Assembly: GCA_964600375.1 (NCBI GenBank)
Contig: CAZRKY010000001.1
Location: forward strand, 1 to 49,728
Reading direction: 5' to 3'
Source of the DNA: an uncultured Caulobacteraceae bacterium
GTDB lineage: Bacteria > Pseudomonadota > Alphaproteobacteria > Caulobacterales > Caulobacteraceae
DNA: 49,728 nucleotides
The notes beneath the pieces are model-generated. The model was not told the DNA's origin. It saw only the letters and a list, made by a program, of their open reading frames with translations, and made no database searches. The position numbers and the translations under genes were made by a program. The number at the start of each line of letters is the position of its first letter. Positions within the stretch are counted from its first letter, which is position 1. This document shows, in pieces, positions 1,435 to 49,728 of this stretch.

Positions 1435-2238
1435 ATGACCTACTGCATCGGAATGCTGGTGAATGAAGGTCTGGCCATCATGGCCGACACCCGCACCAAC
1501 GCGGGGGTCGACAACATCGCCTCCTACCGAAAGCTCAACGTACTTGACAAGCCCGGCGAGCGGGTGATCGCGGTGGCCACCTCGGGCAACCTGTCCATGA
1601 CCCAGATGGCCCTGGCCCTGGTCGAACAGGGCATCGTCCTGCACGGCGAGACCGATCCCCAGACCCTGTCCAACGCCCCCACCATGTTCCGGGCCGCGGA
1701 ACTGGTCGGCCACGCCATGCTGCTGGCGCGCAAGAACATCTCGCCGTCGCTGTCGGCCGACACGCTGAAGGTCGACGGCAACATCCTGCTGGGCGGCCAG
1801 ATCGGCGACGGGCCGATGCAGCTCTACCTGATCTACAGCCAGGGCAACTTCATCGCCTGCGGGGCCGAGACCCCCTACCTGCAGATCGGCGAGTTCAAGT
1901 ACGGCAAGCCCATCCTCGAACGCGCCCTGCGCCACGACACGCCCCTGACCGAGGCGGTGAAGCTGGGCCTGCTGTCGGTGGACTCCACCCTGCGCTCGAA
2001 CATCTCGGTCGGCTTCCCGCTCGACACCCTGGTCCTGCGCAAGGGAACCCTGCGCGGCGTGCAGCGCCGCATCGAGCAGGACGATCCCTACTTCCACGAA
2101 CTGAGCCGCAGGTGGTCCGAGGCGCTCGCCGCCGCCCACCGCGCCATGCCAGAGCCCGAATGGCTGGCGCCCGCCAACGCCAACGCCGCGGCTCCGCCGG
2201 CCGAACCCGGGGCCAAGGGCCGGGCCGACCGCGCCTGA
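1435..2238 (+). CDS. proteasome-type protease, Anbu (ancestral beta subunit) family
   Basis: 267 aa starting MTYCIG, with Thr2 as the likely N-terminal nucleophile. The fold pattern is proteasome beta-like. Third member of the conserved alpha-E/transglutaminase/Anbu cluster. Confidence 0.85.
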   Translation: MTYCIGMLVNEGLAIMADTRTNAGVDNIASYRKLNVLDKPGERVIAVATSGNLSMTQMALALVEQGIVLHGETDPQTLSNAPTMFRAAELVGHAMLLARKNISPSLSADTLKVDGNILLGGQIGDGPMQLYLIYSQGNFIACGAETPYLQIGEFKYGKPILERALRHDTPLTEAVKLGLLSVDSTLRSNISVGFPLDTLVLRKGTLRGVQRRIEQDDPYFHELSRRWSEALAAAHRAMPEPEWLAPANANAAAPPAEPGAKGRADRA

Positions 2239-2346: not shown

Positions 2347-2399
2347 CTCCCTGTTCCGGGACCGCCGCTCCCTGTTCAGGGTGATGCGTTCTCCCTGTT
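2347..2399. repeat. three spaced copies of CTCCCTGTT (reverse complement of AACAGGGAG)
   Basis: Copies at 2347-2355, 2368-2376 and 2391-2399 with 21-23 bp spacing. A degenerate copy TCCCTGTT lies at 2487-2494. Confidence 0.9.
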
Positions 2400-2506
2400 A
2401 ATCGGCGCGCTGTGGCGGGTTTCGGCCTGGGCGCGGGCAGGAAAAGCGATTGGAAACAGGAGGATACCGGCCCACCCCTCCGTCCGTCCCTGTTTTCGCG
2501 CGGTCA

Positions 2507-2558
2507 GGAACAGGGAGGAACAGGGAGGAACAGGGAGAAAACAGGGAGAAACAGGGAG
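2507..2558. repeat. tandem array of five (G/A)(G/A)AACAGGGAG units, period 10-11 bp
   Basis: CAGGGAG at 2511, 2521, 2531, 2542 and 2552. The array is read directly and ends 8 nt before the recQ stop codon, in a convergent intergenic region. Confidence 0.95.
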
Positions 2559-2565
2559 CGGCGGC

Positions 2566-4425
2566 TCAGTTGTCCCGCACCAGCTTGAGGACCGCCGCGC
2601 CGTAGCGCGCCAGCTTGCCCTCGCCGACGCCGGCGACCTTGGCCAGCCGGGCCGCCGACTCCGGCCGGGCGCGGGCGATGTCGAGCAGGGTCTTGTCGTG
2701 GAAGATGACGTAGGGCGGCACGCCCTGGTCGGTCGCCACGTCCTTGCGCCAGGCGCGCAGGGCCTCGAACAGGGGCTTGTCGGCCTCGGGCACGGGGGTC
2801 ATGGGCTCGCGGGTCTTGCGGCCGCGGCGCGGGCGGGCGGCGTCGGCGGTCTCCAGGTCGCGGCGGGTCTCGACCTTCAGGTCGCCGCGGTAGACGGCCT
2901 TGACCAGGGCCGGGTCGCCCAGACCCAGCAAGGGCTTGCCGTCGTTGGGATCCTCGGCCAGCAGGCCCTCGTAGAGCAGGTGGTCGATCAGGTCCTTCCA
3001 GCCCTGGGCGGACAGCTCGCCGCCGATGCCGAAGGTGGTGAGCTCGGCTTCCCAGGGGGCGACGTCCCTGGTCTTGCCCAGCAGGTGGTCGACCACCCGG
3101 GTCTTGCCGAAGCGGCCGCCCAGGCGGTGGACGGCGCTGATGGCCTTCTGGGCCGACTGGCTCGCGTCGATGACGGTCGGGGGGCTGAGGCACAGGTCGC
3201 AGACGCCGCAGGGGGCCGCCTCGGCCTCGCCGAAGTAGTGGCGCACCGCCATGGCCCGGCAAGAGGCCCCGTCCAGCATGCGGAACAGCTGGCGGGCCTT
3301 GAGGATCTGGGCGGCCTTGACCTCCGGCTCCATAGGCCGGCCGTCGATGCGGCGCAGCGCCCAGGCGATGTCGGAGGGGCCGTAGAGGGTGATGCCGTCG
3401 GCGGGCTCGCCGTCGCGCCCGGCGCGGCCGATCTCCTGCCAGTAGGCCTCGATCGAGGAGGGCGGATCGGCGTGGATGACGAAGCGGACGTCGGGTTTGT
3501 CGACGCCCATGCCAAACGCGATGGTGGCCACCATGACCGCGCCGTCCTCGCCGAGGAAGCGGGCCAGGCGCCGGTCGCGCTCGCGGCCGTCGAGGCCTGC
3601 GTGGTAGGCGATGGCGGGGAATCCCCGGCCGAGCAGGTCGGACGCCAGCCGGTCGGCGCCGTCACGCGAGCCGCAGTAGACGACGCCCGACTGGCCCGGC
3701 CGCCGGGCCACCAGCTGGGCCACCGCCTCGTCGGTGCGGGCGCGGCTGGCGCTCTCCTTGCGCAGCGCCGAGAGCTGCAGGTTGGGGCGCGCGAAGCTGT
3801 CGACGAAGACCTTGGCCCCGCCCAGGCGAAGGGAGCGGACGATGTCCTCCCGCGTGCGGGCGTCGGCGGTGGCGGTCACCGCCAGGCGCGGCACGCCCGG
3901 GAAGAGCTCGGCCAGCCGGCCGAGGTCGCGGTAGTCGGGCCGGAAGTCGTGGCCCCACTGGGAGACGCAGTGGGCCTCGTCGATGGCGATGAGCGCCAGG
4001 TTCAGCCGCCCCAGCCGGTCGATCAGGTGCGGCTGGGCCAGGCCTTCGGGCGAGACGTAGAGGAGGTCCAGCTCGCCCGCCTCGGCCTGGCGCCAGATGG
4101 CCGAGCGCTCGTCCATCGAGACGTTGGAATCCAGCCGCGCCGCCGCCACCCCCTGCTGGCGCATGGCCGCGACCTGGTCGGCCATCAGGGCGATCAGGGG
4201 CGAGACGACGAGGCCGACGCCTTGCCGCATCATGGCGGGGATCTGGTAGCAGACGCTCTTGCCGCCGCCCGTCGGCAGCACCGCCAGGGCGTCGCGGCCG
4301 GCCAGAATCTCGGCGATCACCTCGGCCTGCAGCCCCCGGAACGACCGGTGGCCCCAGACGCGCTCCAGCAGGCCGCGCGCGGCCTCCAGGGGGTCTTCAC
4401 GGACGAGGGTCGAGTCGGGGAGCAT
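2566..4425 (-). CDS. recQ: ATP-dependent DNA helicase RecQ
   Basis: 619 aa. Walker A (LPTGGGKSVCYQIPA), DEAH box (IAIDEAHCVSQWGHDFRPDY), Zn-binding Cys cluster, and a C-terminal HRDC-like region (FEALRAWRKDVA...PPYVIFHDKTL). Confidence 0.95.
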   Translation of the reverse strand: MLPDSTLVREDPLEAARGLLERVWGHRSFRGLQAEVIAEILAGRDALAVLPTGGGKSVCYQIPAMMRQGVGLVVSPLIALMADQVAAMRQQGVAAARLDSNVSMDERSAIWRQAEAGELDLLYVSPEGLAQPHLIDRLGRLNLALIAIDEAHCVSQWGHDFRPDYRDLGRLAELFPGVPRLAVTATADARTREDIVRSLRLGGAKVFVDSFARPNLQLSALRKESASRARTDEAVAQLVARRPGQSGVVYCGSRDGADRLASDLLGRGFPAIAYHAGLDGRERDRRLARFLGEDGAVMVATIAFGMGVDKPDVRFVIHADPPSSIEAYWQEIGRAGRDGEPADGITLYGPSDIAWALRRIDGRPMEPEVKAAQILKARQLFRMLDGASCRAMAVRHYFGEAEAAPCGVCDLCLSPPTVIDASQSAQKAISAVHRLGGRFGKTRVVDHLLGKTRDVAPWEAELTTFGIGGELSAQGWKDLIDHLLYEGLLAEDPNDGKPLLGLGDPALVKAVYRGDLKVETRRDLETADAARPRRGRKTREPMTPVPEADKPLFEALRAWRKDVATDQGVPPYVIFHDKTLLDIARARPESAARLAKVAGVGEGKLARYGAAVLKLVRDN

Positions 4426-15781: not shown

Positions 15782-15799
15782 GTGTTTCACGTGAAACAC
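15782..15799. promoter_or_regulatory. perfect 18-bp palindrome GTGTTTCACGTGAAACAC
   Basis: Read directly. Lies in the ald upstream region, 187 bp from the ald ATG. It contains two GT-N3-AC half sites, a GntR-like operator shape. Confidence 0.45.
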
Positions 15800-15820
15800 G
15801 ACCGGTTCTGTCGTGGCGGG

Positions 15821-15884
15821 GAACAGGGTCAGCAACAGGCCCGGGAACAGGCTTGAACAGGTCCAGCAATCGGCGCCGAACAGG
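15821..15884 (+). repeat. five direct copies of (G)AACAGG with roughly helical spacing
   Basis: Copies start at 15821, 15834, 15845, 15855 and 15878. Non-coding, between the 2-hydroxyacid oxidase stop and the ald promoter region. Confidence 0.85.
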
Positions 15885-40552: not shown

Positions 40553-41206
40553 CTACGCCCCGGCGCTCACCTTCAGCCCGATGGGACACACAACGCCCGT
40601 CCCGCCGATGCCGCAGTAGCCGGCCGGGTTCTTGGCCAGGTAGCCCTGGTGGTAGCCCTCGGCGTAGTAGAACTCGGGTGCCTCGGCGATCTCGGTGGTG
40701 ATCGTGCCCAGGCCGCGCGCCGTCAGCGCCTGCTGGTAGGCGTCGCTGGACGCCTCGGCTGCGGCGCGCTGGGCGTCGTCCACCCAGTAGATGGCCGAGC
40801 GGTACTGGGTGCCGTGGTCGCCGCCCTGGCGCATGCCCTGGGTGGGGTCGTGGTTTTCCCAGAAGGCCTTTAGAAGTTGGTCGTAGGTGATGACCTTCGG
40901 ATCGAAGACGACCTTCACCGCCTCGGTGTGGCCGGTGCGGCCGGTGCAGGCTTCCTCATAGGTCGGGTTGGGGGTGATGCCGCCCTGGTAGCCGACGGCG
41001 GTGACCCAGACGCCCGGCAGTTGCCAGAAGATCCGCTCGACCCCCCAGAAACAGCCCATACCGAAATAGGCGGTCTCGAAGCCGTCGGGATAGGGCCCCT
41101 TGAGCGGTTGGCCCAGGACGAAGTGGTCGCCGTCGGTGGGGATGGGGGCGTCGCGGCCGGGCAGGGCGGTTTCGCGGGTGGGCAGGTCTTTGGGCTTGCC
41201 GAACAT
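40553..41206 (-). CDS. msrA: peptide-methionine (S)-S-oxide reductase MsrA
   Basis: 217 aa with active site GMGCFWGVE and the [11 protein letters not shown] motif. Confidence 0.93.
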
Positions 41207-41400: not shown

Positions 41401-41490
41401 GGAGAGGTGGCCGAGTGGTCGATGGCGCACGCTTGGAAAGCGTGTATAGGGGAAACTCTATCGTGGGTTCGAATCCCACTCTCTCCGCCA
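41401..41490 (+). tRNA. tRNA-Ser (anticodon GGA), CCA encoded
   Basis: GGAGAGG...CCGAGTGGTC (D arm), anticodon loop TTGGAAA, a long variable arm, T arm GGGTTCGAATCCC, and acceptor end CTCTCCGCCA. Confidence 0.9.
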
Positions 41491-41659
41491 CCCACCCGTC
41501 GAGATTTTCTCCGGGCTGAGGGCGTCCCAGAAACCCCCCGAAATTCCCGGGACTTCAACCCGGACAACCGCCGTAGCTCCCCGATTGATGTGCGTTTCAA
41601 CCCCAGTTCTGGGGGCAATATCCCTGCCTGGTCTCCGCCCGTCCCGGATGTAGTGGAGT

Positions 41660-41853
41660 TTCCCTGCTATCAGGGAATCTACAGGGAAGAGTCGCCAGAA
41701 AGGTCGCTTTTCGAGGGGTATCGACCCCCGACGTCCCTCGCAGACCCTTGTCCCGCAAGGGTCCCCGGACCTCTAACCCCCAATACCCTGTTCCAGACGG
41801 AACAGGGAATTGTGTTCGGTGGATCAGGGAACGGCCGAAATCAGATCAGGGAA
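41660..41853. repeat. cluster of CAGGGAA / TTCCCTG heptamers between tRNA-Ser and the recombinase gene
   Basis: Forward CAGGGAA at 41671, 41682, 41803, 41825 and 41847. Reverse TTCCCTG at 41660 and CCCTGTTCC at 41786. These include the inverted pairs TTCCCTG-N4-CAGGGAA and CCCTGTTCC-N4-GGAACAGGG. Confidence 0.9.
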
Positions 41854-43474
41854 ATCCCAGCACTGCGCGCTGGTCGCTCCAAGCCGCCGGCAGGGGTTGG
41901 TTGAGGAGCCCATGCAGGGTGAGCCCCCGGGGTTGGCGACCCTCAAGGATCGCGGACTGGATATCGGGGGCCAGGAAGGCTATCCGGATCAGGATCCGGT
42001 CGTAGGCGCTCTGGGGGGCTTCACCCATCCCCCCTCGGGGCCCGGACCGCCCCCCGCGCAGAAGGGCATGGGCAGCTTTGAGGCCTGCGATCAGGGTGGG
42101 GTCTGGCTTAGCGCAGTCCCTTTTCCCGAAGGGGTCCGAGAGCCAAACGCGCCCCCCCCGGACCTTCAGGCGGATGGGCAGGGTGAAGATCAGGAGTCCC
42201 GCGTCATCCGCCAGCCTAAGGGTCTCCCCCGACTGCAGGTTGGGACGCAGCATCTCCAGGGCAGCTTCGCGTCCCGGACCCTTGCGGGACAACGCTTCCC
42301 GCTTGATCAGCAGGGTGATTTGCTGGGGCAGGATATCGACCCGCCCGATCAGTCTCGCAATCGTCCCGGACGCTTGTCCCGTAAGCCTCTGGAGACTTGC
42401 GATGACCAGATCCTCGATGGCGTCGGAAGGGACCCTCCGGATCGTCTCAGGGTCAGGGGGGAGGGGTTCACCCCTCAGGAGGGAGGTGCTGACGTAGTAT
42501 CGATAGATCTTGCTGGGACCCTTGCGGGTGAAGCAGGGGGACATCGGTTGACCCCTGTCATCAAACAGGAGTCCCTTGAGGATCATGGGTCTGACGGTGG
42601 TCGTGCGTCCCTTTCGCTCCCGGGTCCTGTCGCGAATTCCCTGCTGCACCCGTTCGAACGTATCTGGGTCGATGATGGGGGGATGGGCACCCGGGTAGCT
42701 GAGGGTCTTGTGGGGGATGTGACCCAAGTAGACCCGGTTCTTCAGGAGGTGGAACAGGGCGCCCCTGCTGAAGGTGGCGCCCCCCATTTGTCGGCCGCGG
42801 GTCGACGTCCAGGACTTGGATCGAATACCCCGCTCCTCAAGCCAGGCCCTCAAGGCGTGGACCGACCCCATGATCAGGTACTGATCGAAGATGAGCCGGA
42901 CGGTCTCCGCCTCGGCGGGATTGATGACCAGAGCCCGGGTCTGCGGATCGTTCGGAGGGTCGTAGCCGAGGGGTAGGTTGCCCCCCATCCACATGCCTCT
43001 CGCCTTGGAGGCTGCGATCTTGTCGCGGATCCGCTCTCCGGTGACCTCGCGCTCGAACTGGGCAAAGGACAGCAGCACATTGAGGGTCAGGCGCCCCATC
43101 GAGGTGGTCGTGTTGAACGCCTGTGTGACCGACACAAAGCTTGAACCGGCCTTGTCGAGGATATCGACGATGCGGGCGAAGTCGGTGAGCGAGCGGGTCA
43201 GGCGGTCGACCTTGTAGACCACGATGACGTCGATCAGACCCTTGCTCACGTCAGCCATCAACTGGGTCAGGGCGGGGCGGTCCATACTCCCCCCTGAGAA
43301 CCCCCCGTCATCGTAGATGGTCGAGAGCGCCACCCACCCTTCCCCAGCCTGCGACAGGACGTAGGCCTCGCAGGCTTCTCGCTGGGCGTGCAGGCTGTTG
43401 AACCCCTGCTCGAGGCCTTCCTCAGAGCTCTTGCGAGTGTAGATCGCGCACCGCACGCGGCCGGGAGCCTTCAT
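41846..43474 (-). CDS. large serine recombinase (resolvase/invertase N-domain + recombinase + zinc-ribbon domains)
   Basis: 542 aa from the ATG at 43474 (SD GGGAGGAG). Catalytic region RCAIYTRKSSEEG...YKVDRLTRS... Confidence 0.9.
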   Translation of the reverse strand: MKAPGRVRCAIYTRKSSEEGLEQGFNSLHAQREACEAYVLSQAGEGWVALSTIYDDGGFSGGSMDRPALTQLMADVSKGLIDVIVVYKVDRLTRSLTDFARIVDILDKAGSSFVSVTQAFNTTTSMGRLTLNVLLSFAQFEREVTGERIRDKIAASKARGMWMGGNLPLGYDPPNDPQTRALVINPAEAETVRLIFDQYLIMGSVHALRAWLEERGIRSKSWTSTRGRQMGGATFSRGALFHLLKNRVYLGHIPHKTLSYPGAHPPIIDPDTFERVQQGIRDRTRERKGRTTTVRPMILKGLLFDDRGQPMSPCFTRKGPSKIYRYYVSTSLLRGEPLPPDPETIRRVPSDAIEDLVIASLQRLTGQASGTIARLIGRVDILPQQITLLIKREALSRKGPGREAALEMLRPNLQSGETLRLADDAGLLIFTLPIRLKVRGGRVWLSDPFGKRDCAKPDPTLIAGLKAAHALLRGGRSGPRGGMGEAPQSAYDRILIRIAFLAPDIQSAILEGRQPRGLTLHGLLNQPLPAAWSDQRAVLGFP

Positions 43475-43878
43475 GGCTGCTCCTCCCGAAGCCCGAAGAA
43501 CCGGGGTCCGTTCCACTTGGTCCCAGTGATCGCGCGGGCGACGGCGGATAGGCTCGGGTAGGTCTCGCCCTCCCAGACGAACCCGTCGGCGGTCGTCTCC
43601 ACGTCGTGGCACCGGCCCTGCCATTCCCTGGTGATCTTCAACCCGACAGACAGCCGCGAGGGGCCCGCCGCGGGCCTGGGCTGCCGAAGGACGCGTCGCA
43701 CCGACGAGGGGATATCGCCCCAGGCGTCAGACTGGATGCGCCAGGCCAGCAGGAGGCAGAGAAGCTCTTTGGAGCGGAGCCGAGGTGGCTCACCAATGCG
43801 TTCGCGCCAGACCCTGCGCAGGCCCTCGAGGTCCAGGCGTTCGAGCGCCTGGACCTCCGTTGTGATCGCATCAGCCAT
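43471..43878 (-). CDS. DUF2924 domain protein (recombinase-associated)
   Basis: 135 aa from the ATG at 43878. Pattern LEGLRRVWRERIGEPPRLRSKELL...ITGTKWNGPRFFGL. Overlaps both neighbouring genes. Confidence 0.8.
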   Translation of the reverse strand: MADAITTEVQALERLDLEGLRRVWRERIGEPPRLRSKELLCLLLAWRIQSDAWGDIPSSVRRVLRQPRPAAGPSRLSVGLKITREWQGRCHDVETTADGFVWEGETYPSLSAVARAITGTKWNGPRFFGLREEQP

Positions 43879-44210
43879 CAGTCGGCCTTCGGGGCGATCC
43901 GGTAGATGCGTTGGCCGTCGACCTTCTCCGAGGCGACGTCGTGGCCGAGCTTCTTCTTGATGGACCCGGCCAGGGCGCCGCGCACCGAGTGGGCTTGCCA
44001 CGAGGTCGCTTCGATCGCCTGAGCGATGGTCATGCCTTCGGCGCGCTGGAGCAGATCGATCAGGATCGCGAGCTTGCTCTTGGGGCGCTCAGTCACCGTC
44101 GGGGTCGCGGCGGCAGAGGGCTGGGGTTGGTCGTCGGGCGTACGAGGTGCGGCCTTCTTGGGGGTGGCCTTGGCTTGCTTGGCGCACGGCGCAGTCTTGG
44201 GCTTGGTCAT
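43878..44210 (-). CDS. DUF3489 domain protein
   Basis: 110 aa. Lys/Pro-rich N-terminus followed by SKLAILIDLLQRAEGMTIAQAIEATSWQAHSVRGALAG, a winged-helix-like segment. Confidence 0.78.
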   Translation of the reverse strand: MTKPKTAPCAKQAKATPKKAAPRTPDDQPQPSAAATPTVTERPKSKLAILIDLLQRAEGMTIAQAIEATSWQAHSVRGALAGSIKKKLGHDVASEKVDGQRIYRIAPKAD

Positions 44211-44423
44211 GGTGTCCTCGTCTTTGCGTGAGGCGCGACTGCCGCGCCCCTACTGAGACGAGCCCGGGCGGACCGGGCTTGAGGACGACGTGACCAACGC
44301 TCCCTTCAGCGCCGAAGTCGAGTGCAGAAATTGGCATTCACTTTTGTGCGCGATCCTAGTCTGCGAATCGGGCAGAATGTTCGCAATATGTTCTGGCATT
44401 GCTACGCTTGAGGGGGCGGCTCA

Positions 44424-45056
44424 ATGGAAACGGTTGAAGTGGCAGATTTCCGTCACGCCACTGCGTACCTGGTGGGCCGCATGGCCTATCCGGCTCCTTC
44501 GGAGATCCTGCGCGCGGAGCGGGCCGCCGGTATTCTCGCTGCGCATCAACTGGCGCGACGCCGGCCGGCGGATTTCGACTGGCGCGATGCACCGCAGGAA
44601 ATCTCACAGATCCTCTGCATTGGCCGCCGGCCACCCAAAGATCGGTTTGTCGAGCGCCTCAATCATCGAATGTTTGCCGCACAGGTCGCCGGGCCACTCA
44701 TCGCTCGCGAACTTGGGCTAGAGCTGCCGAAGAACGCGCCCACCTCTCTTGGCGAGTCCATCGACCAAGCCTTGGTCGATCGCGAAGGCAACGACGATGA
44801 CAATTTCAAAGGCCGCATCTGGAACCCATCCTTCCCGATGCTTCACTACGCCTTGGCTTTCGCCATGCTCTCCAAGCGCATCCTGGATGAAGGCAACATG
44901 CCTCACGACGGGATCATTGGGTTAGCTTCAAGCCGAGTGTTCTTCGACGCTTGGCTGAAGGCTGCCGCTGCCTTGAAGCCGGTGATTGAACGCCTGTGGT
45001 CCAGGCACGTGGCGCACAACCCGCTTAGGGACGTTCAGTTCGCAATCGCCGCCTGA
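44424..45056 (+). CDS. hypothetical protein (island cargo, no recognisable domain)
   Basis: 210-aa ORF in the lowest-GC stretch of the window. No competing ORF of similar quality overlaps it. Confidence 0.55.
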   Translation: METVEVADFRHATAYLVGRMAYPAPSEILRAERAAGILAAHQLARRRPADFDWRDAPQEISQILCIGRRPPKDRFVERLNHRMFAAQVAGPLIARELGLELPKNAPTSLGESIDQALVDREGNDDDNFKGRIWNPSFPMLHYALAFAMLSKRILDEGNMPHDGIIGLASSRVFFDAWLKAAAALKPVIERLWSRHVAHNPLRDVQFAIAA

Positions 45057-45125
45057 TTGGCAAAAAGTGACCCCCGATCCGGGGTGGATCTTCTGGCCTG
45101 ATGCCCCGCAGCAGCGGAGGCCGCC

Positions 45126-46472
45126 ATGGCACAGAAGACCCACCCCAGCCCGATCCGTACGCTCAGCGTAGAGAGCGTCCCGATCAACCAACTGACGCTC
45201 GACGAGCTCAATCCTCGCATCCATCGCCCGGCGCACGTCCGGCAGATCGCCGAGAGCATCCGGGTCACCGGATACAATGCGCCGATCCTGATTGATCGGG
45301 ACGGCAAGGTTCTCTCTGGCCACGGTCGTGTGAAGGCGTGTCTGCTGCTCGGCCTTACCGAAATCCCCGCGATCAGATTGGAGCATCTCACGCCGGAACA
45401 GGCGCGGGCTTTCTCGATCGCCGAGAACCGGCTCGTTGAAGCTGGCGAGTGGGACAAGCGCGTCCTGGCCAACCATTTCAAGGCGCTCTGCGCGGTCGAC
45501 CTTGATTTCAGTCTGGAGGTTACCGGCTTCTCGACGCCAGAGATCGACCTGATGATCGAAGGCCTGGACCTCGACGGCTCTGGCGCTGACCCGGACGATG
45601 AGATGCTGGAGCCGGCGTTGAAGACGGTCACGCGCCCAGGTGACTTGTGGACTCTTGGCCGCCATCGGCTGCTGTGCGGCAACGCGCTGCAGCGTGAAAG
45701 CTACCTCACCCTGCTCGATGGACGCCTCGCCGACGTCGTGTTCAGCGACCCGCCCTACAACGTCCGGATTCAAGGTCACGTCAGCGGCAAGGGTCGCAGG
45801 CGACACCGAGAGTTTGCAATGGCGTCAGGTGAGATGTCGGACGCGGAGTTCGCGACCTTCCTGACCCAGGCGGCGCAACTGATGGCGGCTCACAGCCGCG
45901 ACGGCTCAGTCCATTTCCTCTGCATCGACTGGCGCCACCTCTTCACCCTGATCTCCGCGGGGAGGGCGGCATACGACGACCTGCTGAACCTCTGCGTCTG
46001 GACCAAGAACAACGGCGGGATGGGGTCTCTTTACCGTTCGGCCCACGAGTTCGTGGCGGTGTTCCGCAAGGGTCCCGGGCCCCACCGGAACAACGTCGAA
46101 CTGGGACGCCACGGCCGCAATCGAACCAACGTCTGGGCCTACCCGGGAGCCAATAGCTTCGTGCGTTCCTCGGAGGAGGGGGATCTCCTCGCCCAACATC
46201 CGACGCCCAAGCCCGTGCAGATGGTCGCGGACGCCTTGCTGGACGTGTCGGCTCGCGCAGACGTCGTTCTCGATCCCTTCGTCGGCTCCGGCTCGACCTT
46301 GGTCGCCGCGGAGCGGGTCGGGCGTGTCTGCTGCGGCATGGACCTCGATCCCGCCTACATCGATCTCGCGATCCGCAGGTGGGAACGACTGACCGGTGAA
46401 GCCGCGATCCTGGGCGCCACCGGCGAAACCTTCAGCCAGCGCCTGGAGGAGCCGTCCGATGCCGAAATCTAG
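45126..46472 (+). CDS. ParB-like nuclease domain fused to a beta-class N6A/N4C DNA methyltransferase
   Basis: 448 aa. N-terminal ParB/Srx-like region (LDELNPRIH...GHGRVKA), motif IV SDPPYN, and motif I at the C-terminus (DPFVGSGST). Confidence 0.88.
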   Translation: MAQKTHPSPIRTLSVESVPINQLTLDELNPRIHRPAHVRQIAESIRVTGYNAPILIDRDGKVLSGHGRVKACLLLGLTEIPAIRLEHLTPEQARAFSIAENRLVEAGEWDKRVLANHFKALCAVDLDFSLEVTGFSTPEIDLMIEGLDLDGSGADPDDEMLEPALKTVTRPGDLWTLGRHRLLCGNALQRESYLTLLDGRLADVVFSDPPYNVRIQGHVSGKGRRRHREFAMASGEMSDAEFATFLTQAAQLMAAHSRDGSVHFLCIDWRHLFTLISAGRAAYDDLLNLCVWTKNNGGMGSLYRSAHEFVAVFRKGPGPHRNNVELGRHGRNRTNVWAYPGANSFVRSSEEGDLLAQHPTPKPVQMVADALLDVSARADVVLDPFVGSGSTLVAAERVGRVCCGMDLDPAYIDLAIRRWERLTGEAAILGATGETFSQRLEEPSDAEI

Positions 46473-46857
46473 AGACTACAAGGTCGGCTTCGCTCGTCCG
46501 CCCAAAGCCAGTCAGTTCAAACGCGGACACTCCGGTAATCCGTCTGGGCGCCCGAAAGGCTCGCGCGGCGTGAGCGCCATCATCGCCAAGGCGCTGGCCG
46601 AGAAGGTGGTCGTCACCGAGCAGGGCCAGCGCCGCGAGATCAGCAAGCTGGAGGCCGCCGCCAAGCAGCTCGCCAACCAGGCGGCCGGCGGCGACCAGAG
46701 GGCGGCTAAGCTGGTCATGGGGATGTTGCTGCAGGCTGAGGACAAGGCGTCAGGCGATGCCCCTGAGGTCGACGTGGAGGCCCGCCGTGCACGCGACCGC
46801 GAGGTGATGACCTCGCTGGCCCACCTCCTCACTCAGAAGAAGGAAGCAGACCAATGA
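46459..46857 (+). CDS. DUF5681 protein, putative small terminase subunit
   Basis: 132 aa from the ATG at 46459: MPKSRDYKVGFARPPKASQFKRGHSGNPSGRPKG.... Sits immediately upstream of, and overlaps, the large terminase gene. Confidence 0.7.
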   Translation: MPKSRDYKVGFARPPKASQFKRGHSGNPSGRPKGSRGVSAIIAKALAEKVVVTEQGQRREISKLEAAAKQLANQAAGGDQRAAKLVMGMLLQAEDKASGDAPEVDVEARRARDREVMTSLAHLLTQKKEADQ

Positions 46858-48509
46858 GCGCTGAGTCTGATCTGCCCGCGCGCCTTGCAGAGTACCTGCC
46901 CGACGACATGCTCGAGATCCTGATCCGCAGCGACTTTGCGACCTTTGTGCGCAAGACGTTCGAGACGCTGAACCCGGGTGTGCGGCTGCACTGGTCGCCC
47001 TACCTCGACTACCTCTGCGCCAAGCTTCACGACCTCGCCATGGGTCGCATCAAGCGTCTCATCATCATGATGCCGCCGCGGCACCTGAAGTCCTGCTGCG
47101 CCAACGTCGCGCTCACGGCCTTCTTCCTCGGTCATTTTCCGCAGAAGGACATCATGTCGGTCAGCTACTCAGGCGACCTCGCCAAGGGCTTTGGCGAGGA
47201 TGTCCGCAAGGTCATGCTGAGCGACTGGTATCGAAAGGCGTTCGACACCCGTCTGGCTTCCGTGCGTGCGCCGGCGAGCGCCCTTCGGACCACAGCGGGC
47301 GGAGTACGGCGCGCCACTTCGATCGATGGGACTGCAACCGGTGTAGGTGCGGATCTGCTGATCTTCGACGATCCCCAGAAGCCGGGCGAGATCCTCTCCG
47401 AAGCGGTCCGCAACAACACCAACCACGCCTACGAGAATACCTTCCTGAGCCGGCGCAACGACCCGAACAGCTGTGGCGTCCTGGTCATCATGCAGCGGCT
47501 GCACGAGGAGGATTTCATCGGCCACGTGATGGCTCTTGAGACCGGCTGGGAGTTCGTCCGGCTGCCCGCCATCGCCGAGGACGATGAAGAGGTAACGTAC
47601 ACGTCGGCTCTGGGTGAAAAGGTCTATCAGCGGGCCGAAGGCGAGCCGCTGAACCCGTCGCGCATTTCGCTCGAGGAGTTGGCCAACATCCAGTCCGCTT
47701 CAGGCGAGGCGGTCTGGGCGGCGCAATACCAACAGCGCCCGACGCCGGCTGGCGGCGGGTTGATCAAGCTCGCCTGGTTCCGACGCTACCGGGATGCGCC
47801 CCTCAGGTTCACGCAGATCATCCAATCTTGGGACACCGCATCCAGCATCGCACAATGGTCCTGCTACAGCGTGTGCACGACCTGGGGCGTTGATGGCCAG
47901 GACATCTACCTCCTCGATGTTTATCGTGAGCGTCTCCTTTTCCCTGACCTCAGGCGCGAAATCTGCCGCCTCGCCGAGAAATGGCAGGCGACGGAGGTCA
48001 TCATCGAGGATGCCGCCTCGGGCCAACAGATACTCCAGGACCTTGCTCAAACGGGTTTCCATCTCGCCCGCGGCGTCAAGCCCGTAGGCGACAAGCAGAC
48101 CCGTATGGCCAACCAGACGGCCCTGATCGAATCCGGCCGAGTCCTGATCCCCGAAGAGGCGCCCTGGCTGGCGGAGTTCCTGCATGAACTCGTGATGTTC
48201 CCGAATGGGCGCTACGACGACCAGGTCGACTCTACGTCCCAAGGCCTAGCCCAACTGAACTACCGGCATATCCCCGGCTGGAATGTCCGAGAGTACTACC
48301 GGCAAGAGAGCGAACGCATTCTTGGCAGAGGATCCGGGCCCGACGAGATCCTGCGGATCCAAGGTCCGGAAGGTGTGGGCCAGTCCTACGGGGAAGGCTT
48401 CGACTACCGCCCGCAGCCGGACGGGTATTTCCATATGCGCAAGGACCACGCCATCATGCACTCCGGCAGGATGGGCTGGACGCTCATCGATCAGCCTAGC
48501 GATTGGTGA
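46854..48509 (+). CDS. phage terminase large subunit
   Basis: 551 aa. Deviant Walker A MPPRHLKS, Walker B LLIFDDP, and the C-terminal nuclease motif DDQVDS. Confidence 0.88.
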   Translation: MSAESDLPARLAEYLPDDMLEILIRSDFATFVRKTFETLNPGVRLHWSPYLDYLCAKLHDLAMGRIKRLIIMMPPRHLKSCCANVALTAFFLGHFPQKDIMSVSYSGDLAKGFGEDVRKVMLSDWYRKAFDTRLASVRAPASALRTTAGGVRRATSIDGTATGVGADLLIFDDPQKPGEILSEAVRNNTNHAYENTFLSRRNDPNSCGVLVIMQRLHEEDFIGHVMALETGWEFVRLPAIAEDDEEVTYTSALGEKVYQRAEGEPLNPSRISLEELANIQSASGEAVWAAQYQQRPTPAGGGLIKLAWFRRYRDAPLRFTQIIQSWDTASSIAQWSCYSVCTTWGVDGQDIYLLDVYRERLLFPDLRREICRLAEKWQATEVIIEDAASGQQILQDLAQTGFHLARGVKPVGDKQTRMANQTALIESGRVLIPEEAPWLAEFLHELVMFPNGRYDDQVDSTSQGLAQLNYRHIPGWNVREYYRQESERILGRGSGPDEILRIQGPEGVGQSYGEGFDYRPQPDGYFHMRKDHAIMHSGRMGWTLIDQPSDW

Positions 48510-48717
48510 CTGACCCCTCAGCCCGAGCCGCAAGAACCGACATGGCGCGGGCGAGCACCTCGATGTCGCGCCCCGCTGCGACAAGGACGTCGGCGCGGTT
48601 TGCTGAGGCGCCCTCCACAGCCCTGGAGAGGGCCAGGCCGACGGTGTCTTCCATTATCTCGCCGATGGCCGTCCCCAGCGCACTGAGGCCCGCGCTTGCG
48701 GTTTCCCGATCGATCAT
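48496..48717 (-). CDS. hypothetical small protein downstream of the XRE regulator
   Basis: 73 aa from the ATG at 48717 (SD GAGGAGG). Its 3' end overlaps the terminase 3' end by 14 nt. Confidence 0.5.
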   Translation of the reverse strand: MIDRETASAGLSALGTAIGEIMEDTVGLALSRAVEGASANRADVLVAAGRDIEVLARAMSVLAARAEGSVTNR

Positions 48718-48774
48718 CTCGCGGCCTCCTCGAAGGCGACACACGGGCCGATTTGCGGGGCTAGTCGATGCGGA

Positions 48775-48987
48775 TCATTCGTCCGGCGTCAAAAGGGCTA
48801 CCGGGGTCGATCCCAGGGCCTGGGCGAGCTCGTAGAGGCTGACGATGGTCGGGTTGCGCCGACCGCGCTCAAGGTCGCTGATGTACTGCTGGCCAAACCC
48901 TGAGCGCGCCGACAGCTGCTCCTGGGTCAGCCCCGCCTCTTGCCGAAGCTTCCGGACGTTTCGCCCTACCAGTCGCCGCATATCCAT
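48775..48987 (-). CDS. XRE-family helix-turn-helix transcriptional regulator
   Basis: 70 aa: NVRKLRQEAGLTQEQLSARSGFGQQYISDLERGRRNPT, a canonical HTH_XRE sequence. Confidence 0.88.
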   Translation of the reverse strand: MDMRRLVGRNVRKLRQEAGLTQEQLSARSGFGQQYISDLERGRRNPTIVSLYELAQALGSTPVALLTPDE

Positions 48988-49058
48988 GCGGTCGGGTTTG
49001 ACTGTCTCGGCGAACCGAGTTTATCCACTATAATATGTAGGCGACCGGGGAGTGACCC

Positions 49059-49728
49059 ATGCGGGTATTGGCAGGTCTGTTGGTTGCGGCGCTTCTGACC
49101 GCATCGGGGGAACCCGCTGCCGCCGCTCCTCGCGCTCCGGAGGTCCAGGTAACCACGGACCAGTTCTCCAAGGACGTGATCTTCCTTGGACCCCGGCAAA
49201 TCATCAATCCGTTTGGCGGGACGATCCGGGACTACCGCCTGCGCAGTTGGGTGAACAAGGAGACCAAGGCGGTCGAGCATCAGCTCTATGTCGAGATCAG
49301 CTACACCGGGAGTTGGCGCTGGTACTCCACCGCGGCCGACGATACGGCCCAAGACCTGCCGGTGACGCGGGTCGGCTCAAACGTCTCGTCCTGCTCCTTC
49401 GGGTGTTCGCTGTCCGAAACCGTCGGGGTGGCCCTGACCGATGAAACCCTCCGCCGGCGGGCGGCCAGCGGGATGCAGATCAAGATCAGTGCCCGCAGCG
49501 GTGACGGCTTGATCATCGACCTCTCGGCGCTGCAGATCGGGCTCCAATTGACGGCGATCGATCGGTATCTCGGGGTCAGCACGGCCGCCGACCCGGCCGC
49601 CGCAGTCCTGGTGACCCCAGGAGCAACGCTGGGGGCCGACCTCGGGGCGGACTTCGATGAGGTGCCCAATTATGCCCGGAACCCGTTAACGCGGACGGGT
49701 GGAGCTCTGGTGACCTGGGTAAAGCGAG
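49059..49728 (+). CDS. secreted hypothetical protein, 3' end outside the window
   Basis: Frame-3 ORF absent from the track because it has no stop in the window. My translation begins MRVLAGLLVAALLTASGEPAAAAP (signal peptide) and stays open to 49728. Divergent from the XRE gene, across an AT-rich region with TATAAT. Confidence 0.6.
   Translation, partial: MRVLAGLLVAALLTASGEPAAAAPRAPEVQVTTDQFSKDVIFLGPRQIINPFGGTIRDYRLRSWVNKETKAVEHQLYVEISYTGSWRWYSTAADDTAQDLPVTRVGSNVSSCSFGCSLSETVGVALTDETLRRRAASGMQIKISARSGDGLIIDLSALQIGLQLTAIDRYLGVSTAADPAAAVLVTPGATLGADLGADFDEVPNYARNPLTRTGGALVTWVKR

What the first reader, a model, noticed from the sequence alone, without database searches (positions are those of the whole stretch)
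2347..2558. Opposed arrays of a GGAACAGGGAG-type decamer in the convergent Anbu / recQ intergenic region
Five head-to-tail units (GGAACAGGGAG x3, then AAACAGGGAG x2) occur with a 10-10-11-10 bp period at 2507-2558, about one helical turn per unit. About 110 bp upstream are three copies of the reverse complement CTCCCTGTT(CC/CA/AA) spaced 21-23 bp apart (2347-2399). Degenerate copies lie in between (AACAGGAGG at 2455-2463, TCCCTGTT at 2487-2494). The region is non-coding and sits between two convergent stop codons, so it is not a promoter for either flank. The units are far too short and spacer-free to be a CRISPR array. Helically phased direct repeats facing inverted copies resemble iterons or multi-site binding platforms for a DNA-binding protein, for example a recombinase accessory, partition or nucleoid protein. 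The same core recurs at two other non-coding loci in this window (15.8 kb and 41.7 kb).
Basis: seen in the sequence. Interest (0 to 1): 0.62.

Follow-up and report, generated by a model that had tools for sequence, protein, structure and literature searches.

The report
Orphan two-armed protein-binding repeat module
The repeats between Anbu and recQ are real and form a stray copy of a conserved two-armed DNA module that, elsewhere in this window and in many related mobile elements, sits beside a large serine integrase gene, so it is most likely a docking platform for a mobile-element DNA-binding protein, not a replication origin or slippage junk.

Summary
AACAGGGAG starts at 2509, 2519, 2529, 2540 and 2550. 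CTCCCTGTT starts at 2347, 2368 and 2391, and TCCCTGTT lies at 2487. The 8-mer occurs 10 times in the window against 0.65 expected.

The six-base core clusters at only two places in 49.7 kb: this spacer, and 41621-41853. The second cluster lies between tRNA-Ser and the stop of a large serine recombinase (LSR) gene, which is followed by DUF2924 and DUF3489 genes.

Both clusters, and many loci elsewhere, share one geometry. One arm has three units at 21-23 bp. A gap of about 85-105 bp follows. The other arm is a palindrome or tandem run at 10-12 bp.

In eight related LSR elements the units are nearly invariant (28 of 35 columns) while the rest drifts (12 of 259 columns). DUF3489 models as a winged helix with a basic tail.

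Most copies in other Alphaproteobacteria have no recombinase within the fetched stretch of at most 8 kb, and they often abut a gene's stop codon. Close relatives carry different, shorter arrays at the same recQ end.

Best reading (0.5): a solo, hypervariable copy of a mobile-element protein-binding platform. The binder and the function are inferred, not shown. Rivals are a 3'-end or terminator element, a MITE-like repeat, and iterons.

The parts
2347..2399 (.). Spaced arm (P2): three CTCCCTGTT units starting at 2347, 2368 and 2391 (21 and 23 bp apart), inverted relative to the tandem arm
   Evidence: the same 21-22 bp three-unit arm is seen in other modules
2400..2486 (.). Centre of the module (68% G+C), with one degenerate unit AAACAGGAGG at 2454-2463. 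Its sequence is not shared with other modules
2487..2494 (.). Single inverted unit TCCCTGTT, 14 bp from the tandem run. With the first tandem unit it forms the palindrome or hairpin part of arm P1
   Evidence: homologous hairpins CCCCTGTT/AACAGGGG (L114) and CGCTGTT/AACAGCG (L113) lie at the same recQ end
2507..2558 (+). Tandem arm (P1): five AACAGGGAG units with periods 10, 10, 11 and 10, ending 8 bp from the recQ stop codon. On the recQ mRNA strand it reads (CUCCCUGUU)5 with no A and 5 G in 52 nt
2362..2376 (.). Left arm of a perfect 15-nt inverted repeat, CCGCCGCTCCCTGTT; its partner lies at 2550-2564
   Evidence: I1
2550..2564 (.). Right arm of the perfect 15-nt inverted repeat, AACAGGGAGCGGCGG
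   Evidence: I1
1435..2238 (+). Left flank: proteasome-like (Anbu-type) gene, stop at 2236-2238
2566..4425 (-). Right flank: recQ helicase gene, stop at 2566-2568
41621..41853 (.). Second module in the window. It reads TCCCTG; TTCCCTGctaTCAGGGAAtctACAGGGAAG; about 100 bp; CCCTGTTCCagacGGAACAGGGAA; then ATCAGGGAA twice at 22 bp, the last copy overlapping the recombinase stop codon
41401..41490 (+). tRNA-Ser(GGA), the probable integration target of the adjacent element
   Evidence: L115 shows the same order of LSR, motif field, tRNA-Ser(GGA)
41846..43624 (-). Large serine recombinase gene (Resolvase + Recombinase domains)
43471..44001 (-). DUF2924 gene upstream of the recombinase
   Evidence: no structural relative found
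43878..44210 (-). DUF3489 gene: disordered basic tail plus winged helix-turn-helix. It is the candidate binder of the units (inferred)
15820..15884 (+). Weaker relative: five GAACAGG units at 10-23 bp spacing beside an 18-bp perfect palindrome. Only the short core is shared

Best explanation
The Anbu/recQ spacer holds a solo copy of a conserved, non-coding, two-armed DNA module built from the unit AACAGGGA(G/A).

- Arm P1 is a palindrome plus a head-to-tail run with one unit per helical turn. Here that is one inverted unit plus five tandem units abutting the recQ stop.
- Arm P2 is three units spaced two helical turns apart. The two arms are separated by about 95 bp.

The units are recognition sites for a sequence-specific DNA-binding protein. 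That protein loads side by side on one face of the helix on both arms and probably wraps or loops the roughly 200-bp segment into one complex.

The module is a hallmark of a family of integrative phage-like elements that encode a large serine recombinase with DUF2924 and DUF3489 partners. One such element sits at tRNA-Ser in this same window and carries its own copy of the module between the tRNA and the recombinase stop. The most likely binder is therefore an element-encoded protein. The small winged-helix DUF3489 protein is the leading candidate, then the recombinase or DUF2924.

The recQ copy has no recombinase beside it. It is an orphan: either a relic, or a copy dispersed in the manner of a mobile element. 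Its unit number changes quickly by slippage or unequal exchange.

Shown: the repeats, their non-random clustering, the shared geometry, selective conservation of the units, the link to LSR elements, and the fold of DUF3489.

Inferred: that a protein binds, which protein it is, that the DNA is wrapped, and what the orphan copy does.
For: 1. Within 49.7 kb the core CAGGGA/TCCCTG clusters only at 2348-2557 (9 copies) and 41621-41853 (7 copies). The background is 0.24 per 300 bp.

2. The second cluster lies between tRNA-Ser(GGA) and the stop of an LSR gene, followed by DUF2924 and DUF3489 genes.

3. The geometry is shared:
- recQ: <<< [21,23] | 95 | <>>>>> [24,10,10,11,10]
- LSR-linked L230: <<< [21,22] | 97 | <<>
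- LSR-linked L229: <<< | 97 | <<
- LSR-linked L186: >> | 98 | >>>
- LSR-linked L004: <>> | 98 | >>>
- solo L033: <<< [22,22] | 86 | <>>>>

4. Among 42 DUF2924-selected viral loci, all four motif clusters lie about 60-320 bp downstream of the LSR stop. L115 repeats the window's order of LSR, motif field, tRNA-Ser(GGA).

5. Phylogenetic footprint: in eight related LSR-element modules, 28 of 35 unit columns are invariant against 12 of 259 other columns. Spacers between units are not conserved, while unit positions and the 21-22 bp phase are.

6. DUF3489 models as a disordered basic tail plus a three-helix, beta-hairpin winged helix (mean pLDDT 71.6, about 85-90 over the folded part). Its best PDB matches are ArsR/SmtB, MarR and NolR type DNA binders, and TubR.

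7. Only the motif, not the intervening sequence, is shared between the two modules of the window. That fits a common binder rather than a recent duplication.
Against: No binding experiment exists, and the choice of binder rests on gene neighbourhood only.

Of 111 genome loci found through the tandem pair, only L003 and L078 have an LSR homologue within the fetched stretch of at most 8 kb. The module therefore lives mostly apart from recombinase genes.

Many compact LSR elements show no repeated motif upstream of their methylase gene, and L117 has a different palindrome downstream of its LSR. Yet the putative recognition helix of DUF3489 is invariant in all 24 homologues. That sits awkwardly with DUF3489 as the specificity determinant.

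Large serine integrases studied so far use short, simple att sites without accessory sites (my knowledge of Bxb1 and phiC31).

Palindrome spacers vary (4, 6, 10 and 14 nt), which suits hairpins better than a rigid dimer.

The outer units of solo modules often lie 5-40 bp after a stop codon, in the orientation that puts the pyrimidine strand on the mRNA. That would also fit an RNA-level 3'-end function.
Confidence: 0.5

Rival explanations
1. RNA or transcription-level 3'-end element. The module would be a bidirectional terminator or insulator between converging transcription units. Each incoming mRNA first carries C/U-rich CUCCCUGUU repeats, which resemble a Rho loading site. It then meets the complementary AACAGGGAG copies, which fold back into a hairpin that pauses polymerase or blocks 3' exonucleases.
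For: Orientation is nearly always <<<...>>>, so transcripts from both sides read the pyrimidine strand first.

The outer unit lies 5-40 bp after the stop of a long ORF in at least 15 loci. These include recQ (8 bp), the LSR gene (overlap), L103 (9), L061 (8), L058 (5), L036 (10) and L023 (14).

The recQ-strand arm has 24 C, 23 U, 5 G and 0 A in 52 nt.

The recQ-strand RNA folds to -107 kcal/mol with z = -3.3.

The hairpin at the recQ end keeps complementarity through changes in relatives: TCCCTGTT/AACAGGGA, CCCCTGTT/AACAGGGG and CGCTGTT/AACAGCG.

Sphingomonas copies have a hairpin followed by a T-run (L103 and L065).
Against: No consensus intrinsic terminator is found in the window copy. The plus-strand fold is not better than shuffles (z = -0.9).

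RNA structure does not explain an invariant 8-mer with unconserved spacers and fixed 21-22 bp phasing.

In compact LSR elements all units point the same way as the downstream operon, so the RNA there would be purine-rich and not Rho-like.

There is no Rfam match.
Confidence: 0.2
2. Miniature non-autonomous mobile element (MITE-like). The arms would be sub-terminal binding sites for a transposase or recombinase supplied in trans. The element spreads as a roughly 200-bp unit into intergenic DNA, preferentially just downstream of genes.
For: Several loci per genome occur in several Alphaproteobacteria: 5 loci in Sphingomonas oligophenolica, 6 in MAG MFD04780.bin.2.141, and 4 in the 70% G+C MAG JANNVY.

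Whole-module similarity exists between paralogous copies: L065/L103 are 81% identical over 184 bp, and L001/L076 are 97% identical over 432 bp.

There are terminal inverted repeats, here 15 nt and perfect. L001, L076 and L016 carry 130-190 bp inverted arms with four units each.

Flanking genes are unrelated from locus to locus.

Metagenome contigs break at the array, and depth rises 5-20 fold over 2492-2565 in complex samples.

The asymmetric ends (packed against spaced sites) recall Tn7 and Mu-type ends (my knowledge).
Against: No target-site duplication is visible at 2346/2347 or 2564/2565. No clean empty site was found.

No transposase recurs next to the modules. The IS5 and IS66 copies seen are ordinary neighbours.

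Orthologous copies persist across Sphingomonas species at about 90% flank identity (L014/L067, L011/L088), so recent mobility is not evident.

This rival overlaps the best explanation, because it also needs a protein that binds the units.
Confidence: 0.15
3. True iterons. The module would be an origin, a copy-control (titration) locus, or a centromere, bound by a phage or plasmid initiator or a partition adaptor.
For: The same half-sites form classical iterons in enterobacterial-type phage contigs. There, 19-bp palindromes ATCCCTGAAAACAGGGAT recur at about 22-bp period inside Phage_rep_O genes, followed by an AT-rich stretch.

The P1 palindromes TCCCTG-N4-CAGGGA in alphaproteobacterial modules have the same 6+4+6 geometry.

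Two clusters of 10-11 bp repeats recall plasmid R1 parC, and TubR is among the fold matches of DUF3489.
Against: No initiator or partition gene lies beside the recQ module, whose neighbours are Anbu and recQ.

The centre is 68% G+C and there is no DnaA box.

Profile comparison finds no relation between DUF3489 or DUF2924 and the O family (probability 0.2%).

Several copies per chromosome at gene ends is not origin behaviour.
Confidence: 0.07
4. Neutral minisatellite. A terminator-like hairpin at the recQ end has been expanded by replication slippage and has no function of its own.
For: Copy number and even unit sequence differ between close relatives. L114 (RecQ 96% identical) has an 80-bp spacer with one hairpin plus AACAGCGGAAT twice. 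L113 (81%) has AACAGCGG four times plus AACAGGGAAT twice.

Exact recent expansions exist elsewhere: seven copies of TCCCTGTTatc in L061, and a 21-bp unit duplicated in L103.
Against: Slippage does not create three inverted units with unrelated 12-14 bp spacers 95 bp away.

It also does not explain the same geometry in unrelated loci and elements, or the near-invariance of units against drifting spacers.
Confidence: 0.05

Closest known systems
Arm-type and directionality-factor sites of phage attachment regions (lambda attP P/P' arms and Xis sites; P2 Cox and 186 Apl boxes)
   Same: Short (about 9 bp) direct repeats, one per helical turn or every second turn. They sit in two arms beside a crossover site next to a tRNA gene and are bound by small winged-helix proteins that bend DNA. 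The window's second module sits exactly there.
   Different: Those systems use tyrosine integrases; here the enzyme is a large serine recombinase. The recQ copy has no integrase and no identified crossover core. This comparison draws on my knowledge of the lambda, P2 and 186 systems and was not tested here.
Accessory sites of small serine resolvases (Tn3/gamma-delta res sites II-III; Sin site II with HU/IHF)
   Same: A serine recombinase whose reaction is organised by extra binding sites spread over 100-200 bp, which wrap DNA into a defined synaptic complex.
   Different: Large serine integrases (Bxb1, phiC31) are described as needing only att sites of about 40-50 bp. The units here are not obviously recombinase half-sites. 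Binding is untested.
Lambda-type origin iterons bound by the O initiator (Pfam Phage_rep_O)
   Same: The same half-sites TCCCTG/CAGGGA, the same 6+4+6 palindrome, and about 22-bp phasing. These were found in Phage_rep_O genes of viral contigs L171, L179, L192 and others.
   Different: The module is not inside an initiator gene and has no AT-rich unwinding element in the window copy. Most units are half-sites only. DUF3489 and DUF2924 show no profile similarity to O.
Dispersed intergenic repeats: MITEs, REP/BIME, the Caulobacter CIR family, and terminator-like repeats such as pneumococcal SPRITE (listed in PMC3184786)
   Same: Non-coding and about 200 bp, with inverted arms and several copies per genome. 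They are often found between convergent genes, and assemblies break at them.
   Different: The module is built from phased copies of one 8-9-mer rather than one long palindrome. No GANTC site is present, although I recall that CIR is defined by one. The CIR paper is not held, so this could not be checked against its consensus. There is no associated RAYT or transposase.
Plasmid centromeres made of iterated repeats (R1 parC/ParR; tubC/TubR)
   Same: Two clusters of 10-12 bp direct repeats bound cooperatively by a small dimeric DNA-binding protein. TubR appears among the fold matches of DUF3489 (rank 37).
   Different: No partition NTPase gene lies nearby. The module is chromosomal, multi-copy, and sits next to integration genes.

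Membership tests
CRISPR array | Repeats of 23-50 bp separated by unique spacers of similar length | tested here: not met
   Units are 9-11 bp and head to tail with no spacers
Replication-origin iterons | Cognate initiator gene at or beside the repeats | tested here: not met
   The neighbours are Anbu and recQ. The O-type initiators that carry the same half-sites are in unrelated enterobacterial-type phage contigs
Replication-origin iterons | Adjacent AT-rich unwinding element and DnaA boxes | tested here: not met
   The centre is 68% G+C and no DnaA-like 9-mer is found with up to 2 mismatches
Replication-origin iterons | Helically phased repeated binding sites | tested here: met
   Periods of 10-11 bp and 21-23 bp
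Attachment-region accessory (arm) sites of an integrative element | Recombinase gene and crossover core adjacent to the repeats | tested here: not met
   Not met at recQ, where no recombinase lies within 2 genes and no core-like sequence is found. Met for the sister module at 41621-41853, which has tRNA-Ser plus LSR
Attachment-region accessory (arm) sites of an integrative element | Same unit and same arm geometry as in bona fide element copies | tested here: met
   Geometry table; units invariant in eight LSR-element modules
Attachment-region accessory (arm) sites of an integrative element | Binding by integrase or accessory protein, and an effect on recombination | not testable with these tools
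   Needs EMSA or footprinting and in vivo integration/excision assays
MITE | Terminal inverted repeats | tested here: met
   15-nt perfect inverted repeat at 2362-2376 / 2550-2564, plus inverted unit arrays
MITE | Target-site duplication and a filled/empty site polymorphism | tested here: inconclusive
   No direct repeat is seen at the edges. Relatives carry other arrays (L114, L113) or a different neighbour gene (L112), so there is no clean empty site
MITE | Parent autonomous element with the same ends | tested here: inconclusive
Intrinsic (Rho-independent) terminator | G+C-rich hairpin followed by a U-tract | tested here: not met
   Zero terminator-like sites in 2000-2900. The hairpin TCCCTGTT-N14-AACAGGGA has no T-run after it
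Rho-dependent terminator (rut site) | C-rich, G-poor, unstructured RNA of 60-80 nt downstream of the stop codon | tested here: inconclusive
   Composition fits on the recQ strand (24 C, 5 G, 0 A in 52 nt). Function cannot be tested here, and the orientation is wrong in LSR-element copies
Known RNA families (Rfam 15) | Covariance-model match | tested here: not met
   No match with E up to 1 in 2000-2900
Caulobacter CIR repeats | Conserved inverted repeat carrying a GANTC methylation site (from memory of Chen & Shapiro 2003) | tested here: not met
   No GANTC in 2239-2565. The defining paper could not be read

The most novel reading that the evidence does not exclude
The P1/P2 module would be the DNA scaffold of a three-protein integration machine made of a large serine recombinase, DUF2924 and the winged-helix protein DUF3489. 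Unlike every characterised large serine integrase, this machine would depend on arm-type accessory sites. The many solo modules at gene ends would be non-autonomous passengers or decoys that the same machine recognises. That would be a new class of miniature elements serviced by serine integrases, widespread in Alphaproteobacteria.
Probability: 0.2. Interest if true: 0.8.

Novelty: new variant of a known kind. Interest (0 to 1): 0.55.

Why it matters
If a prophage-encoded protein does load on these phased units, large serine integrases of this family would use accessory DNA architecture. That property is thought to belong to tyrosine integrases and small resolvases. It bears on how their directionality is set and on their use as genome-engineering tools.

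It would also give a function to two widespread domains of unknown function, DUF3489 and DUF2924. The DUF2924-recombinase gene pairing is also reported in Wolbachia (PMC10299305).

The solo copies define a dispersed repeat family in Alphaproteobacteria for which I found no published name. The family breaks short-read assemblies and marks fast-changing gene ends such as the recQ 3' end.

For this window alone the practical message is modest. The array is not a regulator of Anbu or recQ and is not an origin.

Tried and rejected
- Literature search by the raw 9-mers returned only primer hits. The CIR paper is not held.
- Rfam found nothing, and the consensus promoter/terminator scan found nothing.
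- A recurrent flanking gene family around arrays was sought and none was found. The IS5 and IS66 copies near some arrays look incidental.
- Alphaproteobacterial LexA box (GAAC-N7-GAAC, from memory). The units give GAAC-N6-GAAC and only one N7 step, which ends in AAAC, so this was rejected by inspection.
- CsrA-type GGA sponge RNA and anti-Shine-Dalgarno ideas were dropped, because the units occur on both strands within one module and are phased as DNA.
- Homology of DUF3489 or DUF2924 to the lambda O family: none by hhalign. PDB sequence search gave nothing useful, and the DUF2924 fold has no match.
- A conserved 45-bp hairpin segment lies next to P1 in compact LSR elements (candidate crossover core). 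It is absent from the window.
- Extended similarity between the two modules of the window: only the unit itself is shared.
- A repeated motif upstream of the methylase gene in other compact LSR elements: none found.
- Many viral-contig hits to the triple motif are other things. These include (GGAACAG)n 7-bp runs in high-G+C contigs, O-gene iterons, and low-G+C tandem repeats. They should not be counted as members.
Full report
**What is there.** The spacer between a proteasome-like (Anbu-type) gene (1435-2238, +) and recQ (2566-4425, -) is 327 bp and non-coding.

It contains, from left to right:
- three CTCCCTGTT units starting at 2347, 2368 and 2391 (21 and 23 bp apart);
- an 87-bp centre with one degenerate unit (2454-2463);
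- one more inverted unit, TCCCTGTT (2487-2494);
- after 14 bp, five head-to-tail AACAGGGAG units at 2509, 2519, 2529, 2540 and 2550. The last ends 8 bp from the recQ stop codon.

The 8-mer occurs 10 times in the window against 0.65 expected, and none of 100 shuffles reaches that count. Tandem Repeats Finder and the repeat finder agree, and they add a perfect 15-nt inverted repeat at 2362-2376 / 2550-2564.

**The second copy in the window.** Mapping the six-base core CAGGGA/TCCCTG over all 49.7 kb gives only two clusters, this spacer and 41621-41853.

The second cluster lies between tRNA-Ser(GGA) (41401-41490) and the stop codon of a 592-aa large serine recombinase gene (41846-43624, minus strand; Resolvase + Recombinase domains). 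Upstream of that gene are a DUF2924 gene and a DUF3489 gene. On the other strand come a ParB_N-methylase, DUF5681 and a large terminase. This is a phage-like element integrated at the tRNA.

Its repeat field reads as follows:
- TTCCCTGctaTCAGGGAAtctACAGGGAAG;
- about 100 bp;
- CCCTGTTCCagacGGAACAGGGAA;
- ATCAGGGAA twice at 22 bp, the last copy overlapping the recombinase stop.

Apart from the unit itself, no sequence is shared between the two fields.

**A conserved two-armed geometry.** Alphaproteobacteria were heavily represented, and several genomes had 3-6 loci each, including Sphingomonas spp., uncultured MAGs and a 70% G+C MAG.

Reading these loci and the viral contigs fetched through the window's DUF2924 protein or through a triple-unit pattern shows one recurring plan. 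One arm has three units at 21-22 bp. A start-to-start gap of about 85-105 bp follows. The other arm is a palindrome and/or a tandem run at 10-12 bp.

Examples from the table:
- recQ: <<< [21,23] | 95 | <>>>>> [24,10,10,11,10]
- solo L033: <<< [22,22] | 86 | <>>>>
- LSR-linked L230: <<< [21,22] | 97 | <<>
- LSR-linked L229: <<< | 97 | <<
- LSR-linked L186: >> | 98 | >>>
- LSR-linked L004: <>> | 98 | >>>

The recQ field is thus an ordinary member of this family, with its tandem half expanded to five units.

**Link to serine-recombinase elements.** In IMG/VR the window's DUF2924 retrieves 42 loci. Most show the compact gene order methylase, DUF5681, terminase, DUF3489, DUF2924, LSR. All four motif clusters in that set lie about 60-320 bp downstream of the LSR stop. 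L115 repeats the window's order of LSR, field, tRNA-Ser(GGA).

In circularly permuted contigs (L186, L165, L229, L267, L271, L230, L164, L237) the elements run in this order:
- a conserved hairpin-containing segment of about 45 bp;
- P1;
- a gap of about 97 bp (unit start to unit start);
- P2;
- the next operon.

Aligning eight such modules gives a clear footprint. 28 of 35 unit columns are invariant against 12 of 259 other columns, and the 21-22 bp spacing is kept while the spacers drift. This is the strongest evidence that the units are read sequence-specifically, and as DNA.

An earlier follow-up in this scan, on another genome (e1-1524720), reached a similar reading. I used it as a lead and re-derived the association independently here.

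**Candidate binder.** DUF3489, modelled from 24 homologues, has a disordered basic tail followed by helix-helix-helix-beta-hairpin. The folded part has pLDDT of about 85-90. Its PDB neighbours are ArsR/SmtB, MarR and NolR type winged-helix DNA binders, and TubR.

DUF2924 folds confidently but matches nothing solved. Neither protein is related by profile to the lambda O family.

One caution applies. The putative recognition helix of DUF3489 (W-Q-x-H-S-V-R-G) is invariant in all homologues. Yet some elements lack the AACAGGGA field in the DNA available, and L117 shows a different palindrome. The assignment of the binder therefore remains an inference.

**Solo copies and the recQ end.** Only 2 of the 111 genome loci have an LSR homologue within the fetched stretch of at most 8 kb, and flanking genes are unrelated from locus to locus. 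Most modules are therefore orphans.

Paralogous copies can share the whole roughly 180-bp sequence (L065/L103 at 81%; L001/L076 at 97% over 432 bp). The module thus behaves as a dispersed repeat. Orthologous copies also persist between Sphingomonas species.

Solo modules are oriented <<<...>>> almost without exception. Their outer unit often lies 5-40 bp after the stop of a long ORF.

At the recQ end itself, relatives of this uncultured Caulobacteraceae bacterium (RecQ about 71% identical to Brevundimonas) differ sharply:
- L114 (RecQ 96% identical) has only 80 bp, reading CCCCTGTTttcgatAACAGGGG plus AACAGCGGAAT twice.
- L113 (81%) has 437 bp, with four TCCCTGTT, two AACAGGGAAT and four AACAGCG(G/C) units.
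- L112 (87%) has no array and a different neighbour gene.

The position is thus conserved, while the content turns over fast. The hairpin halves change together.

In bioreactor and wastewater metagenomes that hold this organism, contigs break at the array. Depth over 2492-2565 rises up to about 20-fold in complex samples.

**Weighing mechanisms.** Three features point to a DNA-binding platform: helical phasing, invariant units with free spacers, and the fixed inter-arm distance (95 bp, or about 9 helical turns). The neighbourhood evidence points to the serine-recombinase elements as its home. I put this at 0.5.

An RNA-level 3'-end role is at 0.2. In its favour:
- pyrimidine-rich, Rho-site-like repeats followed by a fold-back;
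- the recQ-strand fold has z = -3.3;
- composition of 24 C, 23 U, 5 G and 0 A in 52 nt.

It explains the stop-codon proximity and the orientation rule. It does not explain the footprint or the same-sense orientation in the compact elements. No consensus terminator is present.

A MITE-like reading (0.15) explains the dispersal. It lacks a target duplication, an empty site and a parent element.

Strict iterons (0.07) are unlikely, for three reasons:
- no initiator gene lies beside the module;
- the centre is G+C-rich;
- there is no DnaA box.

Even so, the same half-sites do form genuine lambda-O-type iterons (ATCCCTGAAAACAGGGAT at about 22-bp period inside Phage_rep_O genes) in enterobacterial-type phage contigs.

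Pure slippage (0.05) cannot make the inverted, spaced arm.

**Limits.** Loci were selected by the motif, so cross-phylum hits may be unrelated. This applies to Pedobacter, to the 7-bp runs in high-G+C viral contigs that I take to be actinophage-like, and to giant-virus MAGs.

Noticed in passing
window 15782-15799: The perfect 18-bp palindrome GTGTTTCACGTGAAACAC matches, from memory, the ParB-binding parS consensus TGTTTCACGTGAAACA. It sits about 20 bp upstream of the GAACAGG array.
   Followed up: no
window 41401-49728: A phage-like element is integrated at tRNA-Ser(GGA). On the minus strand it carries LSR, DUF2924 and DUF3489. On the plus strand it carries an unknown 210-aa ORF, ParB_N-methylase, DUF5681 and the large terminase. 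Its right end lies beyond the window.
   Followed up: partly
L116-L156, L164, L165, L186, L229, L267, L271 (IMG/VR): Many 4-8 kb viral contigs show a compact six-gene order: methylase, DUF5681, terminase, DUF3489, DUF2924, LSR. A conserved segment of about 45 bp, GACTGCGTGGTGGCGGACGCAGTC...CGAACCGGTCTC, lies next to arm P1. It may be the crossover core. These could be small satellites or ends of prophages.
   Followed up: partly
L171, L179, L192, L193, L202-L204, L231, L245, L249, L253, L254, L262, L270: Enterobacterial-G+C phage contigs carry 3-6 palindromic iterons ATCCCTGAAAACAGGGAT at about 22-bp period inside Phage_rep_O genes, followed by an AT-rich stretch. This is a lambda-ori arrangement that uses the same half-sites as the module.
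   Followed up: partly
L240, L200, L209, L173, L259, L234, L243, L239, L242: High-G+C viral contigs carry runs of the 7-bp unit GGAACAG (up to about 14 copies). In several of them CTCAC-containing repeats precede the run. This is probably a separate kind of repeat.
   Followed up: no
L049, L051, L054, L055, L063, L069, L073, L093, L098: Pedobacter and Daejeonella (Bacteroidota, about 40% G+C) carry 3-5 AACAGGGA(G/C) units at an 11-bp period, several loci per genome. In L069 and L093 the units lie about 60-70 bp upstream of a TAnnTTTG-type promoter element. The relation to the alphaproteobacterial module is unknown.
   Followed up: no
L001 3994-4422, L076 2621-3051, L016 4401-4999: Elements of 430-620 bp are bounded by inverted arms of 130-190 bp, each carrying four units (two at 22 bp and two tandem). 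Two 97%-identical copies occur in one MAG. An IS66-family end abuts the arm in L013 and L016.
   Followed up: partly
L113 4861-4935, L114 3125-3175: A variant unit AACAGCGG(AAT) forms tandem runs directly after the recQ stop in relatives. In Sphingomonas orthologues, single units switch between CTCCCTGTT and CTCGCTGTT. The consensus may therefore be AACAGSG.
   Followed up: partly
window 40553-41206 versus the contig of P0004: msrA lies next to recQ in an 84%-identical relative. In the window it lies next to tRNA-Ser and the prophage module, 38 kb from recQ. The two modules bracket that 38-kb segment, which raises the possibility of a rearrangement between them.
   Followed up: no
window 2511-2556: Five GGG tracts are separated by 7-8 nt on the plus strand, giving a weak G-quadruplex-forming pattern directly beside recQ. 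This is probably incidental, since the same units occur at many other genes.
   Followed up: no
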